DNA of 49,995 nt from a phage. Within the stretch, counting starts at the first letter, position 1. Each line of letters begins with the position of its first letter. This document shows, piece by piece, positions 14,276 to 33,168 of this stretch. Made by a program: the position numbers and the translations under genes. The stretch lies in sequence record NC_105507.1. One strand, written 5' to 3'. Under the pieces are notes generated by a model that made no database searches, had not been told where the DNA came from, and saw nothing but the letters and a program-made list of their open reading frames with translations.

Positions 14276-14310
14276 TTACTATCTCCTGAGCGGTTCGTTT
14301 CGATGTGTGT

Positions 14311-14353
14311 AATGTACCCGATCAGGCGGCCTGAGTTTTAACAAAAAGCGCTA
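14311..14353 (-). promoter_or_regulatory. TAGCAC-box promoter-like cassette (leftward early)
   Basis: box variant TAGCGC, TCAGG/CCTGA hairpin, TACATT at 22-bp spacing. Confidence 0.5.
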
Positions 14354-14383
14354 TTTGACGGTTAGCACCAGGATTGTGATCGA

Positions 14384-14474
14384 AATAATCAAAAGTAATC
14401 ATTCGTAATCAAATCACGTCAAAATGATGATTGCCTTTGCAAATTTGATGAGAAAAGTAATCACGTTTAATCAT
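14384..14474. repeat. phased iteron-like array (TAATCA x5)
   Basis: TAATC at about 14386, 14396, 14406 (10-bp phasing) and 14458, 14468. Confidence 0.5.
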
Positions 14475-14649
14475 TGGTTGCAGTGGAGATAGTGAAACCT
14501 TCCCCTCTTGCCTCACTTTTCCGCCTGGCTGTCAGTGGTTGTTGTCTTTTGTTCACCCCTGTTACCGATTTCAGGCGGCGTGTTTCCGCGCGGTTTTCCG
14601 GTGTAGCGAAAACGGAAAAAACAAAGAAAATCCTCTATAATACATTGAA

Positions 14650-14810
14650 AATAAAGATTATTTATTTATATATATCTATAATGTTTTCTTTTTGTTCTCA
14701 CTGTTACAGTGCTTTTTGTTGGTTATGGTGTGGTTGTGTGTGGGTATATATGGATAGTTGCGCGCGCGGCGGATTGCATATGTATATATACTTTTTCCGG
14801 CGGATTGCGT
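14650..14810. repeat. AT/GT-rich intergenic element, copy A (homologous to 44060-44205)
   Basis: shared blocks TTTATTTATTTA, T-rich CTTGTT, GT-rich GGTT repeats, CATRTGTATRTATATA..CCGGCG; contains direct repeat CGGCGGATTGC x2. Confidence 0.5.
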
Positions 14811-14909
14811 TAACAGCGTGAACAGAAAAATAACAGCCGCGAAATCAATAACTTGCGCATGATTTTGTAGTTTTTCGATATTGGTAACGTTTTGAATACA
14901 ACAAAAACA

Positions 14910-14937
14910 TTGACACGCACCAAATAGCTTTTATAAT
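14910..14937 (+). promoter_or_regulatory. consensus sigma70-type promoter (rightward early)
   Basis: TTGACA-16 bp-TATAAT, about 30 bp upstream of RBS/ATG 14969. Confidence 0.7.
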
Positions 14938-15430: not shown

Positions 15431-15702
15431 TGAAAAAGGCATTAATCAGCGTTTTGGCGGCAATGGCATTCCTGACCGGATGCAAAGAAAATGGCGCGCA
15501 TGTTGGCAATGTGCAGATGGCTAACCCTGGTGATGACTACAGCGTAAGGGAGCTATTCACCGCTGACGGTTGCACCGTTTACCGATTCTATGACGATCGC
15601 ACTGTTTACTTCACCAACTGCAAGGGCACTACTAGCCGGGAAGTGTCGAAAAGCAATGGCAAAGGCACGAAGACAGAACATATGACCGTCGAGACAAAAT
15701 AG
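15430..15702 (+). CDS. lipoprotein (candidate superinfection-exclusion/receptor-blocking)
   Basis: signal peptide with lipobox LTGC (MKKALISVLAAMAFLTGC); TAATG overlap with upstream gene. Confidence 0.7.
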   Translation: MKKALISVLAAMAFLTGCKENGAHVGNVQMANPGDDYSVRELFTADGCTVYRFYDDRTVYFTNCKGTTSREVSKSNGKGTKTEHMTVETK

Positions 15703-15742
15703 CACTTTTTGTTAAAACTCAAAAACGATAATCAGGCATAAT
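15700..15742 (+). promoter_or_regulatory. TAGCAC-box promoter-like cassette
   Basis: exact box overlapping TAG stop; CATAAT at 22-bp spacing. Confidence 0.5.
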
Positions 15743-15944
15743 ACACACATAGACGGGCGGCAAGGATTGCTGCGGGAGAGGAGCGACGCAGGGGCTTGAT
15801 CGAAGTGTCAGGATTCCCAACCGTGAGGCCAGAACTATCACACTCGCCACCAGGCAGAACGCTAGATAGGTCACTGAGCTGAGGCTACCGACGAAGTGAA
15901 GCCCGTCACCAAAGATTAAACGATTATTTATGTGAAAGGGGTTA
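15743..15944 (+). ncRNA. candidate structured non-coding RNA or long structured leader
   Basis: about 200 bp GC-rich stretch with no plus-strand ORF, downstream of box cassette; complementary GACGGGC/GCCCGTC about 160 nt apart. Confidence 0.3.
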
Positions 15945-16127
15945 ATGATGGATAAGATCATCAAAATGAGCGAAGCCAAGCCGGGAATGATGGTTAAGTT
16001 TGCTGGCAAATATCGCCTAGTGCTGGATAACTGCCGCAAAGAGAACATTCTTACCATTCGTGTAAATGGCAAGGCGCAGCTATTCGCCCCTAACGCAGAT
16101 ATTGACGTTGAAGTTAGAATTAAGTAA
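15945..16127 (+). CDS. hypothetical protein
   Basis: ORF with purine-rich RBS. Confidence 0.45.
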   Translation: MMDKIIKMSEAKPGMMVKFAGKYRLVLDNCRKENILTIRVNGKAQLFAPNADIDVEVRIK

Positions 16128-16716: not shown

Positions 16717-16758
16717 TAGCACTTTTTGTTAAAACTCAAATGTGGGGCCAGGTATAAT
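16717..16758 (+). promoter_or_regulatory. TAGCAC-box promoter-like cassette
   Basis: exact box; TATAAT in loop of GGGCC/GGCCC hairpin (21-bp spacing). Confidence 0.55.
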
Positions 16759-26896: not shown

Positions 26897-28012
26897 ATGA
26901 AGGCAAAACAAAGATTTGATAGCGCCAAAGTAAAGGCGCACTTTGATGATAACGGGTTTTTAGTTGATCGCCCTATCGTGGCGCGAATTGGTTTACAAGT
27001 CTATCAGACTCCTTTCGGTGAGCGCCGAGAATTTCGCCCTGCGTCAGAAGTATTCAAGGCCGACTCGCTCGCCACCTTTGCAGGGAAGCCGGTCACGGTT
27101 GGTCACGTCACGGTAACGCCAGAAAACGCCGAAAAGGTTGTAGTTGGTTCTTGTGCTGGCGCTGGTGTGCCGAACGGGATCGGCGTAGAGGTTCCGTTAA
27201 GCATTTACTCAAAACGAGCAATCGAAAGCGCAAAGAAGCGAGACACGGCGGAAATTTCAGTTGGTTATACATCGGTTGATATTGATAAACCAGGCTGGGG
27301 CAATAATAAAACTGGTGAGTACGTTTTCGATGAGGACGTTAGCGAAGACTGGAAACCTGATTCTCCTGATTGGGTTAAGTTTGATGCAATCCAGACTGAA
27401 ATCAAGGTAAACCACATCGCGTTAGTTTTCCGAGGTCGAGCTGGCATTGCAAAATTAAACCTTGATAGCCAGCAAGATTTTCCGTATAGTGACGACGTTA
27501 TTAACAACAAAGAGGATCAAATCATGACTGTAAAAATTAAACTGGATGGCGCTGTAGAGTTTGACGTGCCGAAAGCGGTTGCGGATCACATTGAATCACT
27601 GAAAGCTGATACCAAAGCGCAGAAAGAAAAGGCTGACAGCCTAGAAGCTGAGCGAGACGCACTGCAAACCAAAGTAGATGGCATTCAGGATCAGATTGAT
27701 GCCGCAGTCAAGAAGGCCAAAGAAGATGCCGAGCAATATGCTCAATTAGTGGCAGACGCTAAAGAGTTAGGCATCAAGTGCGACGGCCTGGATGCGAAAG
27801 CAATCAAGGTTGCATACATCAAGGAAGTTATGGGCAATGACGTTTCTGATAAAACTGATGCCTATATCGAAACAGCTTTCGACATCGCCAAAAACTCTGA
27901 TAAAATGGCGGCGCAGCGTAAGAGCATTAAAGGTGACTCTTTCGCGAATGAAAAGCAGGATGACGCAGGTTCTAAGCTGAATCCTAACGCTCGTTTTGAG
28001 AAACTGAAATAA
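26897..28012 (+). CDS. putative prohead protease/scaffold protein
   Basis: position before capsid genes; C-terminal coiled-coil Ala/Lys/Asp-rich segment. Confidence 0.5.
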   Translation: MKAKQRFDSAKVKAHFDDNGFLVDRPIVARIGLQVYQTPFGERREFRPASEVFKADSLATFAGKPVTVGHVTVTPENAEKVVVGSCAGAGVPNGIGVEVPLSIYSKRAIESAKKRDTAEISVGYTSVDIDKPGWGNNKTGEYVFDEDVSEDWKPDSPDWVKFDAIQTEIKVNHIALVFRGRAGIAKLNLDSQQDFPYSDDVINNKEDQIMTVKIKLDGAVEFDVPKAVADHIESLKADTKAQKEKADSLEAERDALQTKVDGIQDQIDAAVKKAKEDAEQYAQLVADAKELGIKCDGLDAKAIKVAYIKEVMGNDVSDKTDAYIETAFDIAKNSDKMAAQRKSIKGDSFANEKQDDAGSKLNPNARFEKLK

Positions 28013-28024
28013 GGAGTAATTAAA

Positions 28025-28534
28025 ATGGCTAAAATTGGAGCAAGTTATTTTGACACTATGGCGCGTGCGCTTCCTGGTCAGGTATCCGATACTTCGGCAT
28101 ATAACATCGACGGCGCTTGTGTTCTTGACAAGGAAGACGGCATCCCAATCCTGGTTGGCGTGGCTGTTAAGCTAAAAGGCGTTGACTCAATGGGTAATAA
28201 GCTGATCGACTCCATTTCCGCTGGCGGTGACGTTCCTTATGGCGTTGGCATCCGTTCGCACTTTCAAACTACGGCTGATAATGGACGAATGGTTTATGAG
28301 GCTGGCGGCGGGATCAACGTTATGACAGAGGGCCGCGTTTGGATGGTTGGCGATGATACCGACAAGAGCAAAAAACCATCGTATCGTGAGCCTGTAAAAA
28401 TTGATGAAAACACTGGCAAGGTGAAAAGTGCTGGCACTATCAATACCAACTGGATTTACACGGGAGATAAAACCACATTTGGAACTGGCGATGATGTGTT
28501 GACTTTGTTTGAAGTTCAGGTCTTCCCAAGCTAA
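28025..28534 (+). CDS. structural protein (putative capsid decoration), paralog 1
   Basis: shares YNIDG, GVxIRS, TxGRVW motifs with 28585..29367. Confidence 0.45.
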   Translation: MAKIGASYFDTMARALPGQVSDTSAYNIDGACVLDKEDGIPILVGVAVKLKGVDSMGNKLIDSISAGGDVPYGVGIRSHFQTTADNGRMVYEAGGGINVMTEGRVWMVGDDTDKSKKPSYREPVKIDENTGKVKSAGTINTNWIYTGDKTTFGTGDDVLTLFEVQVFPS

Positions 28535-28538
28535 AATT

Positions 28539-28567
28539 AAGGCGCTCGCTTGAGCGCCTTTTTTATT
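28539..28567 (+). terminator. rho-independent terminator
   Basis: GGCGCTC/GAGCGCC stem plus T-run. Confidence 0.6.
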
Positions 28568-28584
28568 ATGTAAGGAGAAATGAA

Positions 28585-29367
28585 ATGGCTAAAGATTATT
28601 CATCTGTTATGGGTCTTTCTTGCCCTGGTTGTTTGGTTGATTCTACTCGCTACAATATTGATGGAACTGGCGTTTGCGGATCTGAGTCGATCATTGCTGG
28701 CAAAGTTGTTTTCTTCAAAGAGAGAGTGGAAGGTTATAACATATTTGTTGATCATAAAGAGTATGATGCTGTGGTTGCTGGTGTTGCTATAAGGAGCAAT
28801 ATCACGACAACGGTTAACGAGGAAGACGGATACTCTGACTATAAGGAAGGAGATTCTATCAATATTTTAACAAGAGGGGTTGTATGGTGCTTAACTCAAA
28901 CGATTGAGTCTGCGCCTGAACATGGCGATCTTGTTTATGTTAACAATGATGGTTTTGTAGCAAAAGGTGATGGCGATGAAATCGTCGATGGCTGGATTTT
29001 TACTGGTGACTTCTACAAGTTTGATGAAACAATGAACATAGTCGGAGTCAGAATAACGCCGCTTCATCATAGAAAATACCTTCTTACTGGTGCGATCATT
29101 GAGGCCGAAAATGGCTACATAGAGGGAACAGAGACGATTAATAACGTTCAATTAAAGGTAACGGTTGTTCCTACTTGGGCTGATGACAAAACGGGTCAGT
29201 GGACAATTACAAACGAGCAAGATCCAAAGGTTGCCAGCGTTAGCCGTACAGGTCTTGTTGTTCCTACTGGTGTAGGAGGCAGAGTTAACGTCAACTGGAC
29301 TGCTAATGATGGTTCTGGAGTTGCTGACCAGTTTGATATTGTATTTAAGAAAACCGCTGGCGAATAA
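28585..29367 (+). CDS. structural protein with C-terminal Ig-like domain, paralog 2
   Basis: N-terminal domain paralogous to 28025 gene; C-terminal Ig-like pattern. Confidence 0.5.
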   Translation: MAKDYSSVMGLSCPGCLVDSTRYNIDGTGVCGSESIIAGKVVFFKERVEGYNIFVDHKEYDAVVAGVAIRSNITTTVNEEDGYSDYKEGDSINILTRGVVWCLTQTIESAPEHGDLVYVNNDGFVAKGDGDEIVDGWIFTGDFYKFDETMNIVGVRITPLHHRKYLLTGAIIEAENGYIEGTETINNVQLKVTVVPTWADDKTGQWTITNEQDPKVASVSRTGLVVPTGVGGRVNVNWTANDGSGVADQFDIVFKKTAGE

Positions 29368-29392
29368 CTGATAGCATAAAAAAACATTGCAC

Positions 29393-29410
29393 GTTTAACA
29401 AAAAGTGCTA
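29393..29410 (-). repeat. degenerate TAGCAC box copy (antisense in structural module)
   Basis: revcomp TAGCACTTTTTGTTAAAC; no good -10 at canonical spacing. Confidence 0.4.
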
Positions 29411-29417
29411 TCATCTA

Positions 29418-29444
29418 GGCCGTTACATTTAACGGCCTTTTTTA
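29418..29444 (+). terminator. rho-independent terminator
   Basis: GGCCGTT/AACGGCC stem plus T6. Confidence 0.6.
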
Positions 29445-29457
29445 TGGAGGAAGCAAA

Positions 29458-30429
29458 ATGGCTAAAAAATACGATGAATTAGATGCTACCATTGTAGCAA
29501 ATCATTTACAGGTTCAGGGCGTTAAGGGTGATGCTTCTGATATGGGTATTTGGACCGCTAAAGAGCTACACAAGATCCGCTCAACCGCATACGAGAAAGA
29601 ATATCCGGCAGGTTCCGCACTTCGCGTATTCCCTGTAACAAACGAGCTTTCTGATACTGATAAGACTTTTGAGTATCAGACTTTTGATAAGGTTGGCTAC
29701 GCGAAAATTATCGCCGACTACACCGACGATCTGCCGACTGTGGACGCGCTGATGACTTCTGAGTTTGGCAAAGTGTTCCGCCTGGGTAACGCTTATCTGA
29801 TCTCCATTGATGAGATTAAAGCAGGTCAGCGAACTGGCAAGAGCCTGTCAACTCGCAAGGCTAACACTGCGCAAAATGCGCATGATCAGTTGATTAACTT
29901 CCTGGTGTTCAAAGGTTCCAAGCCTCATAAGATCGTTTCCGTTTTCGATCACCCTAACCTTACGAAAATTGTTTCTAAAGGATGGATGAGCCAGGATGGA
30001 AACACCAAGTTCCCTGATGTGGCAAGCGATGAACTGGAGGCTGCAATCGAGACTATCGAGGAAGTAACCAAAGGTCAGCACCGCGCGACTAACATCCTGA
30101 TCCCGCCGTCCATGCGTAAAGTCTTGACGGTTCGAATGGAAAATACCACTGAAAGTTATCTTGAATACTTCCAGAAGCAAAACGGCGGCATCACTATCGA
30201 CTCTATCGCAGAGCTTGAGGATATTGACGGCAAAGGTACGAAAGGTTGCTTGGTTTACGAAAAAGATCCAATGAACATGAGCATTGAGATTCCAGAAGCG
30301 TTTAACATGCTTCCGGCGCAGCCAAAAGACCTTCATTTCAAGGTTCCTTGCACTTCCAAGTGTACTGGCCTTACTATTTACCGTCCGTTTACGATGGTGC
30401 TTATTACTGGCTTGAAAAAGTCAGATTAA
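29458..30429 (+). CDS. major capsid protein
   Basis: 323 aa, strong GGAGG RBS, followed by strong terminator, synteny. Confidence 0.75.
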   Translation: MAKKYDELDATIVANHLQVQGVKGDASDMGIWTAKELHKIRSTAYEKEYPAGSALRVFPVTNELSDTDKTFEYQTFDKVGYAKIIADYTDDLPTVDALMTSEFGKVFRLGNAYLISIDEIKAGQRTGKSLSTRKANTAQNAHDQLINFLVFKGSKPHKIVSVFDHPNLTKIVSKGWMSQDGNTKFPDVASDELEAAIETIEEVTKGQHRATNILIPPSMRKVLTVRMENTTESYLEYFQKQNGGITIDSIAELEDIDGKGTKGCLVYEKDPMNMSIEIPEAFNMLPAQPKDLHFKVPCTSKCTGLTIYRPFTMVLITGLKKSD

Positions 30430-33125: not shown

Positions 33126-33168
33126 AATCTATCAAATAAATTAATTCCACTTTTAACAAAAAGTGCTA
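33126..33168 (-). promoter_or_regulatory. TAGCAC-box promoter-like cassette, antisense to tail genes
   Basis: revcomp box, TAGATT at 22-bp spacing, pointing leftward into terminator hairpin. Confidence 0.4.

What the first reader, a model, noticed from the sequence alone, without database searches (positions are those of the whole stretch)
15743..15944. GC-rich 200-bp non-coding stretch downstream of a promoter cassette
Between the lipoprotein gene and the next gene there is about 200 bp with no plus-strand ORF, noticeably more GC-rich than neighbouring spacers, with complementary GACGGGC and GCCCGTC about 160 nt apart that could close a structured domain. The only ORF across it is an antisense 155-aa frame that overlaps two plus-strand genes. 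I could not recognise a tRNA or any known RNA class.
Basis: inference. Interest (0 to 1): 0.5.

Follow-up and report, generated by a model that had tools for sequence, protein, structure and literature searches.

The report
New structured leader RNA in coliphages
The GC-rich gap encodes a roughly 156-nt, intricately folded RNA at the very start of a phage transcript; compensatory base-pair changes preserve the fold in at least six genera of enterobacterial phages, it matches no catalogued RNA family, and its function is still unknown.

Summary

The window sequence alone would not show this:
- Its folding energy is no better than shuffled sequence.
- A 7-nt inverted repeat turns up in 27% of shuffles.

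The evidence is comparative:
- The element is present in about 170 phage genomes: Warwickvirus, Changchunvirus, Dhillonvirus, Jilinvirus, Murrayvirus, Sortsnevirus and two unclassified phages.
- It always lies 7-10 nt downstream of a -10 box, on the gene strand, with no terminator of its own.
- The genes that follow it are unrelated between lineages.
- On a hand alignment of 36 distinct sequences, 9 helices (49 pairs) are 94.5% paired. 27 pairs change on both sides; the slid-partner controls give 31-42% paired.
- About 75 core nucleotides are nearly invariant.

No reading frame is conserved on either strand. There is no match in Rfam 15, no tRNA or tmRNA call, no homology to HK022 put, and no paper carrying the sequence.

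Function is inferred, not shown. My best guess is a cis-acting 5' leader that binds a conserved host factor, most likely put-like antitermination or protection of the transcript. The rivals are a processed decoy RNA, a riboswitch and a ribozyme.

The parts
15700..15742 (+). Promoter cassette. It comprises an A/T-rich repeated 24-mer (15700-15723), a -35-like TTAAAA (15712-15717), a 19-nt spacer and a -10 CATAAT (15737-15742).
   Evidence: The 24-mer occurs 4 times in the window with 0 expected. The sister copy at 16717 scores 10/12 as a sigma-70 promoter. A -10-like hexamer lies 7-10 nt before P1 in every lineage. In Dhillonvirus WFI it is TTGACA-18-TATTAT, 11/12. No transcription start has been measured.
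15748..15751 (+). Inferred transcription start and short 5' overhang ((C)AUA).
   Evidence: Inferred from the position 6-9 nt after the -10 box. ACAUAG is conserved before P1 in the Warwickvirus, PHB17, HeidiAbel and Arya types. Not measured.
15752..15907 (+). The structured RNA element: 156 nt, 9 helices, two three-way junctions.
   Evidence: Covariance model R1 scores 145 bits, E 3e-31, and finds a single copy in the window. 94.5% of pair cells are paired and 27 of 49 pairs change on both sides. RNAalifold recovers 43 of the 49 pairs.
15752..15758 (+). P1, 5' strand (GACGGGC). It pairs with 15901-15907 (GCCCGTC).
   Evidence: helix 1: 7 of 8 pairs change on both sides. Examples are GGGCGGCG/CGCCGCCC in Lumpael and GTCGACAG/CTGCCGAC in Dhillonvirus.
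15760..15770 (+). P2 hairpin GCA-AGGAU-UGC.
   Evidence: The stem covaries three ways: GCA/UGC, UGC/GCA and AUA/UAU. The loop A-GGA-U/C does not vary.
15771..15773 (+). P3, 5' strand (UGC). It pairs with 15896-15898 (GUG).
   Evidence: helix 3: the middle pair is A-U, G-C, G-U or U-A depending on lineage.
15774..15779 (+). J3/4 (G)GGAGA, facing J4/3 GACGAA at 15890-15895. Together they form a conserved 6x6 purine-rich internal loop.
   Evidence: GGAGA and GACGA(A/G) do not vary in 36 sequences. The idea that they form non-canonical pairs is inference.
15780..15784 (+). P4, 5' strand (GGAGC). It pairs with 15884-15889 (GCU-A-CC, with a bulged A).
   Evidence: Found without my structure by RNAalifold on a plain MAFFT alignment. 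The third pair is A-U in 19 sequences and G-C in 17.
15786..15824 (+). P5-P6 arm: ACG CA GGGG CUUGAU CGAAGU GUCAGG AU UCCC AAC CGU. Nearly invariant even at paired positions.
   Evidence: Compensated changes are rare: U-A to G-U in Lumpael, and C-G to U-A in L192.
15827..15880 (+). Variable arm. P7 is GGCCAG/CUG(A)GCU. P8 is CUAUC/GAUAG. P9 is CU(C)GCC-ACCA-GGCAG. The linkers CACU and AGAACGC are conserved.
   Evidence: helices 7-9: 13 of 17 pairs change on both sides. The P9 loop is GAAA, GCAA, GAAC or ACCA.
15908..15921 (+). G-poor single-stranded tail ACCAAAGAUUAAAC, possibly part of the element.
   Evidence: A U(U/C)AA(A)C motif lies 0-8 nt after P1 in 12 of 17 lineage variants. Its role is untested.
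15945..16127 (+). First downstream gene (60 aa, phrog_8121, unknown function). It is co-transcribed with the element. It is not part of the RNA family, but in Warwickvirus it is gained and lost together with the element.
   Evidence: SECphi27 lacks both the core of the element and this gene.

Best explanation
What it is. Window 15752-15907 (+) is a member of an undescribed family of structured RNAs of about 156 nt.

Architecture:
- The closing stem P1 and the short helices P2 and P3 form a first three-way junction.
- A conserved purine-rich 6x6 internal loop (GGAGA/GACGAA) follows.
- A second junction (P4) carries an almost invariant P5-P6 arm and a freely covarying P7-P8-P9 arm.

Expression. 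The RNA is transcribed by host RNA polymerase from its own sigma-70-type promoter. P1 therefore lies within 0-4 nt of the 5' end of the transcript. The element has no terminator and runs straight into the next genes.

How it probably works (inferred). It acts as an RNA, in cis, as the leader of its own transcript. It would fold as it leaves the polymerase and bind a host component that is conserved among Enterobacteriaceae.

The specific mechanism I rank first is a put-like action on the transcribing RNA polymerase, which would make it resistant to termination. The 5' stem would add protection of the transcript's 5' end from decay.

Shown: the family, the fold, the strand, the position next to a promoter, and the lack of a conserved ORF.
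Inferred: the transcription start, action in cis, the host partner and antitermination.
For: Identity and fold:
- The element is conserved in about 170 phage records from six named genera plus two unclassified phages, while the flanking genes differ.
- 94.5% of pair cells are paired against 75.4% in shuffles. 27 of 49 pairs change on both sides (0 of 500 shuffles reach this). Slid controls give 31-42% paired.
- RNAalifold on a plain MAFFT alignment already finds P3-P6 and P9, with 5 compensated pairs. On the hand alignment it recovers 43 of 49 pairs.
- A divergent member, L192, adds further compensations.
- G-U cells outnumber A-C cells 138 to 27, so the + strand folds.

Leader position:
- A -10 box lies 7-10 nt before P1 in every lineage. 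In WFI the promoter scores 11/12.
- No terminator follows the element, and a Shine-Dalgarno sequence and start codon follow within about 25-55 nt.

Independence from any particular gene: the next genes in six lineages fall in ten different PHROGs.

A host partner: about 75 nt are nearly invariant, including the paired bases of P5-P6, although the carrier phages are otherwise unrelated and share only their host family.

Antitermination:
- In Dhillonvirus, where the element appears in roughly 140 database records, it heads the rightward operon next to the helicase-primase genes.
- A conserved strong terminator (GGCCCGC-TAATCT-GCGGGCC followed by a T-run) sits directly between the first gene and the next genes. 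In SSL-2009a there is no room there for a good promoter.
- HK022 putL likewise lies just downstream of an early promoter and acts without any protein (PMC9378689).

Protection of the 5' end: SECphi27 has the same promoter and the same first 10 nt, but only a simple 5' hairpin in place of the element.
Against: - No transcript, 5' end or 3' end has been measured.
- The simple scan finds no intrinsic terminator downstream in the window (over more than 5 kb), in Lumpael or in IME279. A need for antitermination is therefore visible only in Dhillonvirus.
- The element shares no sequence or structure with put. Model R1 finds nothing in HK022 (best hit 12 bits, E 0.23). It is also twice the size of put and has a different architecture.
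- In Warwickvirus the element is dispensable, because SECphi27 and its relatives lack it.
- The invariant GGA loop of P2 and the conserved tail would fit a protein-binding or processed RNA equally well.
- The hand alignment was built with the structure in mind, which inflates the pairing percentage somewhat.
Confidence: 0.4

Rival explanations
1. Processed, trans-acting stable RNA. The leader is cut off the mRNA in the G-poor tail by RNase E, or by RNase P at a tRNA-like end. It then accumulates as an RNA of about 160 nt that sequesters or mimics a substrate of a host protein, for example CsrA, a nuclease or a defence factor.
For: - The P2 loop A-GGA-U/C does not vary although its stem covaries three ways. 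CAGGAUG and CAGGACG equal the CsrB repeat consensus as I recall it. That is a lead from memory, not a test.
- A second single-stranded GGA lies 11-12 nt away in J3/4.
- The tail motif U(U/C)AA(A)C is conserved, and N-CC(A) follows P1 directly in about half of the lineages.
- Presence is patchy among close Warwickvirus relatives, as is typical of accessory host-takeover or anti-defence functions.
- A P1 stem at the 5' end would stabilise a free RNA.
Against: - No lineage has a terminator or any other defined 3' end directly after the element.
- A mobile RNA gene would be expected to carry its own terminator.
- Only one hairpin presents GGA in its loop, against many in CsrB-type sponges.
- The element appears in roughly 140 Dhillonvirus records at a fixed regulatory position, which looks more like housekeeping regulation than an accessory decoy.
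Confidence: 0.25
2. Pure 5' stabiliser or translation enhancer. The element is an elaborate 5'-terminal structure whose only role is to block 5'-end-dependent decay (RppH, RNase E) or to attract ribosomes through its GGAG-rich loop.
For: P1 lies within 0-4 nt of the inferred start in all lineages. SECphi27 replaces the element with a plain 5' hairpin built on the same 5' strand. J3/4 and P4 read GGAGAGGAG, which resembles a Shine-Dalgarno sequence.
Against: A stabiliser needs only a stem. This reading does not explain about 75 invariant nucleotides, two junctions and a conserved internal loop that are kept across unrelated phages.
Confidence: 0.15
3. Riboswitch. The fold is an aptamer for a metabolite or signalling nucleotide and tunes expression of the early operon to the state of the host.
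For: The anatomy is aptamer-like: covarying stems, invariant junctions and internal loop, and a closing P1 next to the start of the transcript.
Against: There is no terminator, and I could find no conserved helix able to sequester the Shine-Dalgarno sequence. The downstream genes are unrelated and of unknown function, whereas riboswitches normally travel with the genes they control. No Rfam riboswitch matches at E 1-10 or better.
Confidence: 0.1
4. Self-cleaving or other ribozyme that processes the 5' end of the transcript.
For: The core is highly conserved and has multiple junctions. Small ribozymes are known to be associated with phages (my own knowledge).
Against: No hit to hammerhead, twister, twister-sister, pistol, hatchet or HDV-like models in Rfam. 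Nothing points to a cleavage site.
Confidence: 0.05
5. Not an RNA element at all: a small protein gene on either strand, a DNA-level site, or chance.
For: Some GenBank records annotate CDSs across the element: KarlBarth gp49, PHB17 gp77 and Bas97_0052. The window sequence alone shows no significant folding signal.
Against: No frame is open in all members. The best frame is open in 25 of 36, and the antisense 155-aa frame in 11 of 36. Substitutions come as compensating pairs. The G-U excess is strand-specific. Model R1 finds nothing in 883 kb of chance-matched loci.
Confidence: 0.03

Closest known systems
HK022 put RNAs (putL, putR): cis-acting, protein-independent antiterminator RNAs
   Same: Both are structured RNAs transcribed right after an early phage promoter, on the operon strand, without a terminator of their own, in phages that depend on E. 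coli RNA polymerase. putL lies just downstream of PL (PMC9378689). In Dhillonvirus a strong terminator follows the first gene.
   Different: put is about 70 nt with two stem-loops in a V shape. This element is 156 nt with nine helices and two junctions. The two are not detectably homologous. Terminators downstream are evident in only one carrier lineage. No functional data exist for this element.
Riboswitch aptamers and orphan riboswitch candidates
   Same: A closing P1, covarying stems, and invariant junction and internal-loop nucleotides, all in a 5' UTR.
   Different: There is no recognisable expression platform and no consistent class of downstream gene. No Rfam family matches.
C4 antisense RNA of phages P1 and P7 (a leader-derived RNA released by RNase P; my own knowledge)
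   Same: Both are structured RNAs encoded in the leader of a phage operon. Several lineages here have N-CC(A) directly after the closing stem, which is reminiscent of an RNase P substrate.
   Different: The Rfam C4 model does not match. No target sequence is evident downstream. The CCA-like tail is present in only about half of the lineages.
5'-terminal stabiliser stem-loops (ompA type) and CsrA-protected leaders (flhDC); my own knowledge
   Same: The stem lies within a few nucleotides of the 5' end. There is a GGA hairpin loop plus a second GGA near the 5' end. SECphi27 carries a plain 5' hairpin at the same place.
   Different: The element is far larger and far more conserved than stabilisation requires. 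CsrA binding has not been tested.

Membership tests
Any Rfam 15 family (4227 covariance models) | Score at or above the family's gathering threshold, or at least a suggestive E-value. | tested here: not met
   No gathering-level match in the whole window. Only two chance hits, E 3.4 and 9.2, in 15600-16050. No hit at E 1 or better in seven other lineages.
tRNA / tmRNA | Cloverleaf or tRNA-like domain recognised by ARAGORN. | tested here: not met
   ARAGORN finds 0 genes in the window. The 7-bp stem followed by ACCA is suggestive, but there is no T arm.
HK022 put antiterminator RNA | About 70 nt forming two adjacent stem-loops. | tested here: not met
   156 nt, 9 helices, two three-way junctions.
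HK022 put antiterminator RNA | Sequence or structure homology to putL/putR. | tested here: not met
   Model R1 run over the whole HK022 genome with filters off gives a best hit of 12.2 bits, E 0.23, inside a tail gene.
HK022 put antiterminator RNA | Located downstream of an early promoter, upstream of terminators, on the operon strand. | tested here: inconclusive
   The promoter-proximal position is met in all lineages. A downstream intrinsic terminator is found only in Dhillonvirus. None is found in the window, Lumpael or IME279.
HK022 put antiterminator RNA | Suppresses termination in cis through the beta' zinc-binding domain of RNA polymerase. | not testable with these tools
   Needs reporter assays and rpoC mutants.
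Riboswitch | Conserved aptamer with covarying stems. | tested here: met
Riboswitch | Expression platform: a terminator or a helix that sequesters the Shine-Dalgarno sequence and overlaps the aptamer. | tested here: not met
   No terminator after the element. By inspection, no conserved anti-SD sequence in the core or tail.
Riboswitch | Association with a coherent set of regulated genes. | tested here: not met
   The downstream genes fall in ten different PHROGs, all but one of unknown function. No Pfam domains were found.
Riboswitch | Specific ligand binding. | not testable with these tools
   Needs in-line probing or ITC.
CsrB/RsmZ-type CsrA sponge | Many hairpins presenting GGA in their loops, plus a terminator of their own. 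| tested here: not met
   Only P2 presents GGA in a hairpin loop. The GGA in P6 is paired and is lost in L192. There is no terminator.
5'-terminal stabiliser stem-loop | A stem within about 0-4 unpaired nucleotides of the 5' end of the transcript. | tested here: inconclusive
   The distance from the -10 box to P1 is 7-10 nt in all lineages, which predicts an overhang of 0-4 nt. The transcription start has not been measured.
Small protein-coding gene (either strand) | A reading frame kept open, with a start codon, across homologues. | tested here: not met
   Frames are open in 0, 0, 11, 13, 22 and 25 of 36 sequences. The window itself has stops in the two best-kept frames.

The most novel reading that the evidence does not exclude
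The element is a new functional class of phage riboregulator: a 156-nt RNA with two junctions that, with no phage protein, reprogrammes a conserved host machine. The candidates are RNA polymerase elongation and termination, the degradosome, and CsrA. It would have spread horizontally among at least six genera of enterobacterial siphophages, including BASEL-collection and SECphi model phages.
Probability: 0.35. Interest if true: 0.8.

Novelty: new variant of a known kind. Interest (0 to 1): 0.62.

Why it matters
The element is a well-supported, ornate RNA fold that sits unannotated, or mis-annotated as CDS, in about 170 sequenced coliphage, Salmonella, Klebsiella, Enterobacter and Serratia phage genomes. 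These include easily handled model phages: Dhillonvirus members of the BASEL collection, SECphi18 and swan01-like phages.

It heads the rightward replication-region operon of Dhillonvirus, which I take to be the early operon. It has moved between unrelated phages while keeping about 75 nucleotides almost unchanged. That argues for a specific interaction with something common to enterobacterial hosts.

If it proves to be a protein-independent antiterminator, it would be only the second such phage RNA class after put. If it is a decoy or a riboswitch, it would be a new RNA-based tool for host takeover.

Natural deletion variants such as SECphi27, and tractable hosts, make the question directly testable.

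Tried and rejected
- **Thermodynamics of the window sequence.** Z-scores near 0 on both strands, so uninformative.
- **Rfam.** Tried at gathering thresholds and at permissive E-values, for the window and seven other lineages. Nothing.
- **tRNA and tmRNA.** ARAGORN finds none.
- **Host mimicry or antisense targeting.** blastn against 5,426 complete E. coli genomes gives no match at E 10 or better. Short-word blastn against the rrnH operon gives only chance 11-mers (E 0.17) that are not conserved across the family. My impression of a 5S loop-E resemblance did not hold up.
- **More distant relatives.** Degenerate pattern scans of IMG/VR, GTDB genomes and JGI metagenomes were run. Hits with other spacings in Acidobacteria, Myxococcota and similar genomes lie in coding sequence and are chance. 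R1 found none among 100 such loci. One new divergent member, L192, came out of this.
- **A second copy per genome, as with putL and putR.** None.
- **Homology to put.** None.
- **The 60-aa downstream protein as a CsrA-like partner.** No Pfam hit and no BLASTP alignment to E. coli CsrA.
- **An RfaH ops-like motif (GGCGGCAGGATG) in the Arya/HeidiAbel type.** By inspection it has one mismatch at the critical T and is absent from the other lineages, so I treat it as coincidence.
- **A tRNA-like N-CCA end.** Present in only about half of the lineages.
- **Literature.** The sequence string and the searches on Dhillonvirus or Drexlerviridae with ncRNA or transcriptome terms gave nothing relevant. Three papers read in part do not mention it: PMC10690425, a 2026 preprint that describes UG27 reverse-transcriptase arrays and another 2026 preprint.

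Full report
**The observation.**
The window is a Warwickvirus-type (Drexlerviridae) coliphage, 98% identical to ityhuna and swan01. A lipoprotein gene (DUF4884) stops at 15702 and a 60-aa gene starts at 15945/15948, which leaves 242 bp. No + strand ORF of 30 aa or more lies in the gap.

The stretch 15752-15907 has 0.60 GC against 0.447 for the window, and only 0.15% of 155-nt windows reach that value. GACGGGC (15752-15758) and GCCCGTC (15901-15907) are complementary and lie 149 nt apart. The antisense 155-aa ORF exists.

The window sequence gives no statistical support for structure. Folding z-scores are 0.08 and 0.92, and 27% of shuffles contain a comparable inverted repeat.

The promoter cassette is real. 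Its 24-mer occurs four times in the window with none expected. The sister copy scores 10/12 against the sigma-70 consensus.

**Comparative evidence.**
blastn with the 206-bp stretch finds 172 phage records. A second search from a divergent member returns essentially the same set.

The carriers are:
- Warwickvirus, but only some members
- Changchunvirus PHB17
- roughly 140 Dhillonvirus genomes
- Jilinvirus Arya
- Murrayvirus Lumpael
- Sortsnevirus IME279
- the unclassified phages HeidiAbel_Bas97 and Serratia phage MQ-4

The flanking genes are unrelated between these groups. Most records leave the stretch unannotated.

Pattern scans add 22 IMG/VR contigs and 16 metagenome contigs, all phage-like and 30-52 kb. 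They also add one "Cereibacter" MAG scaffold that looks like a mis-binned phage. No complete E. coli genome carries the element.

**The fold.**
A plain MAFFT alignment with RNAalifold already gave five helices with five compensated pairs. One of them is a long-range helix, GGAGC/GCU(A)CC, that switches between A-U and G-C.

The variable regions were misaligned there, so I built a hand alignment of 36 distinct sequences. I then counted pairs on a nine-helix model:
- 94.5% of 1748 cells are paired, against a shuffle mean of 75.4% (0 of 500 shuffles reach the observed value).
- 27 of 49 pairs change on both sides.
- The covariation score is 0.455 against 0.147.
- Sliding the 3' partners by 1-3 columns drops pairing to 31-42%, with at most 6 compensated pairs.

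P1, P2, P7, P8 and P9 covary heavily. P8, for example, has up to five pair types per position. RNAalifold recovers 43 of the 49 pairs.

The covariance model R1 behaves as a specific model should:
- It finds exactly one copy in the window (145 bits) and one per carrier locus.
- It finds nothing in 883 kb of chance-matched contigs and nothing in the SECphi27 locus.
- It finds one new divergent member, L192, which adds compensations in P2 (AUA/UAU) and in the otherwise invariant P6 (C-G to U-A).

G-U cells outnumber A-C cells 138 to 27, so the + strand is the one that folds.

One caveat applies. The hand alignment was made with the structure in mind, which favours it.

**Not coding.**
No frame on either strand stays open across the family. 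CDSs drawn through the element in KarlBarth, PHB17 and HeidiAbel are therefore probably mis-calls.

**Not a known family.**
- Rfam 15 gives nothing at gathering thresholds or at E up to 1-10, in eight lineages.
- ARAGORN gives nothing.
- R1 finds nothing in HK022.
- Rfam also finds nothing in the HK022 PL/PR region. put itself is therefore not in Rfam, and a negative Rfam search cannot exclude put-like elements.
- Full-text searches for the sequence and for relevant terms found no description. Three papers read in part do not mention it either.

**Anatomy that bears on function.**
1. A -10-like hexamer ends 7-10 nt before P1 in every lineage. In Dhillonvirus WFI the promoter is TTGACA-18-TATTAT. 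P1 should therefore lie 0-4 nt from the 5' end.
2. No lineage has a terminator after the element. A G-poor tail carrying a recurrent U(U/C)AA(A)C motif leads into a Shine-Dalgarno sequence and a start codon 25-55 nt later.
3. The next genes fall in ten different PHROGs, nearly all of unknown function.
4. About 75 nt are nearly invariant. These are the 6x6 purine loop GGAGA/GACGAA, P4, the whole P5-P6 arm including its paired bases, and the linkers CACU and AGAACGC.
5. The P2 loop A-GGA-U/C does not vary although its stem covaries three ways.
6. SECphi27 and related Warwickviruses keep the same promoter and the first 10 nt. They replace the core of the element and the 60-aa gene with a plain 5' hairpin.
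7. In Dhillonvirus the element heads the rightward operon beside the helicase-primase genes. A conserved strong terminator sits in the 49-nt gap after the first gene, immediately before the ribosome-binding site of the next gene.

**Mechanism.**
That the element acts as an RNA is well supported. How it acts is inferred.

The lack of any 3' end signal, the fixed position at the transcript start, and the independence from downstream gene identity together favour a cis-acting leader that binds a conserved host component. Among specific mechanisms I rank put-like modification of RNA polymerase first. The reasons are the positional analogy to putL (PMC9378689) and the Dhillonvirus terminator. The 5' stem would add protection of the 5' end.

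My confidence levels are:

| Claim | Confidence |
|---|---|
| Real structured RNA family | about 0.95 |
| Cis-acting leader | about 0.5 |
| Antitermination specifically | about 0.25-0.3 |

The main rival is a processed, stable, protein-binding RNA. The GGA loop resembles CsrB repeats, but that is a lead from memory. A stabiliser-only role, a riboswitch and a ribozyme follow. Coding, DNA-level and chance explanations are essentially excluded.

**Novelty and interest.**
This is a new RNA family of a known general kind: structured leader RNAs of phage operons. It has unusually clear covariation, an ornate fold and wide horizontal spread in model coliphages. Many candidate RNA motifs are reported every year, so the surprise is moderate. 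The conservation pattern, the tractable phages and the natural deletion variants make it a good experimental target.

Noticed in passing
window 14330-14353 (-), 15700-15723 (+), 16717-16740 (+), 33145-33168 (-): A 24-nt A/T-rich cassette, TAGCACTTTTTGTTAAAACTCAAA, is repeated four times upstream of -10 boxes. It looks like a shared UP-element or regulator site of modular promoters in this phage.
   Followed up: partly
window 14276-14935: An ORF-free, AT-rich (GC 0.39) divergent intergenic region. It contains a perfect sigma-70 consensus promoter, TTGACA-16-TATAAT, at 14910-14937. It may be the main early control region or the origin.
   Followed up: no
window 15908-15921, and the equivalent tails in L004-L012, L192: The G-poor tail after P1 carries U(U/C)AA(A)C within 0-8 nt in 12 of 17 lineage variants. 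In IME279 it reads CUUUAAC, like the core of rrn boxA (TGCTCTTTAACAA at L182:127). It could be a NusB/E site, an RNase E site or neither.
   Followed up: partly
window 15908-15911 and homologues: N-CC(A) directly follows the 7-8-bp closing stem in about half of the lineages: ACCA in the window and PHB17, GCCA in HeidiAbel, ACCU in Dhillonvirus. This is reminiscent of a tRNA acceptor end or an RNase P substrate.
   Followed up: partly
window 15930-15935: A minimal start-stop ORF (AUG UGA) lies just upstream of the Shine-Dalgarno sequence of the 60-aa gene. It is conserved in close relatives but not in metagenome variant L163.
   Followed up: no
L181 (SECphi27) 1361-1470; L003 (XY3) 1213-1672: Warwickvirus genomes differ by clean module swaps at this promoter. 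SECphi27 lacks the RNA core and the 60-aa gene and keeps a simple 5' hairpin. XY3/tunus and SECphi27 carry two extra small genes with their own cassette upstream.
   Followed up: yes
L006 1467-2093 (KarlBarth gp49), L012 843-1601 (PHB17 gp77 methyltransferase), L004 1549-1668 (Bas97_0052): Annotated CDSs extend through the RNA element. The shared peptide WRGAT.G.DRSVRIPNRD is just the translated invariant core. These are probably annotation artefacts.
   Followed up: partly
L150 (QFQS01000013.1, 'Cereibacter sphaeroides' MAG, 42.8 kb): The scaffold carries an IME279-type copy of the element and has the length of a phage genome. It is probably a mis-binned Klebsiella-type phage contig. Records labelled Campylobacter phage A144 and Acinetobacter phage NJ01 also carry Dhillonvirus-type copies.
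   Followed up: no
L031 5334-5353 (-) and L011 2322-2341 (+): A conserved strong intrinsic terminator, GGCCCGC-TAATCT-GCGGGCC followed by a T-run, sits inside the Dhillonvirus rightward operon. It lies in the 49-nt gap between the acidic first gene and the next gene.
   Followed up: partly
L205 (HK022) 27600-30100: Rfam 15 gives no hit in the PL/PR region of HK022, where putL and putR lie. The put antiterminator RNAs appear to be missing from Rfam.
   Followed up: partly
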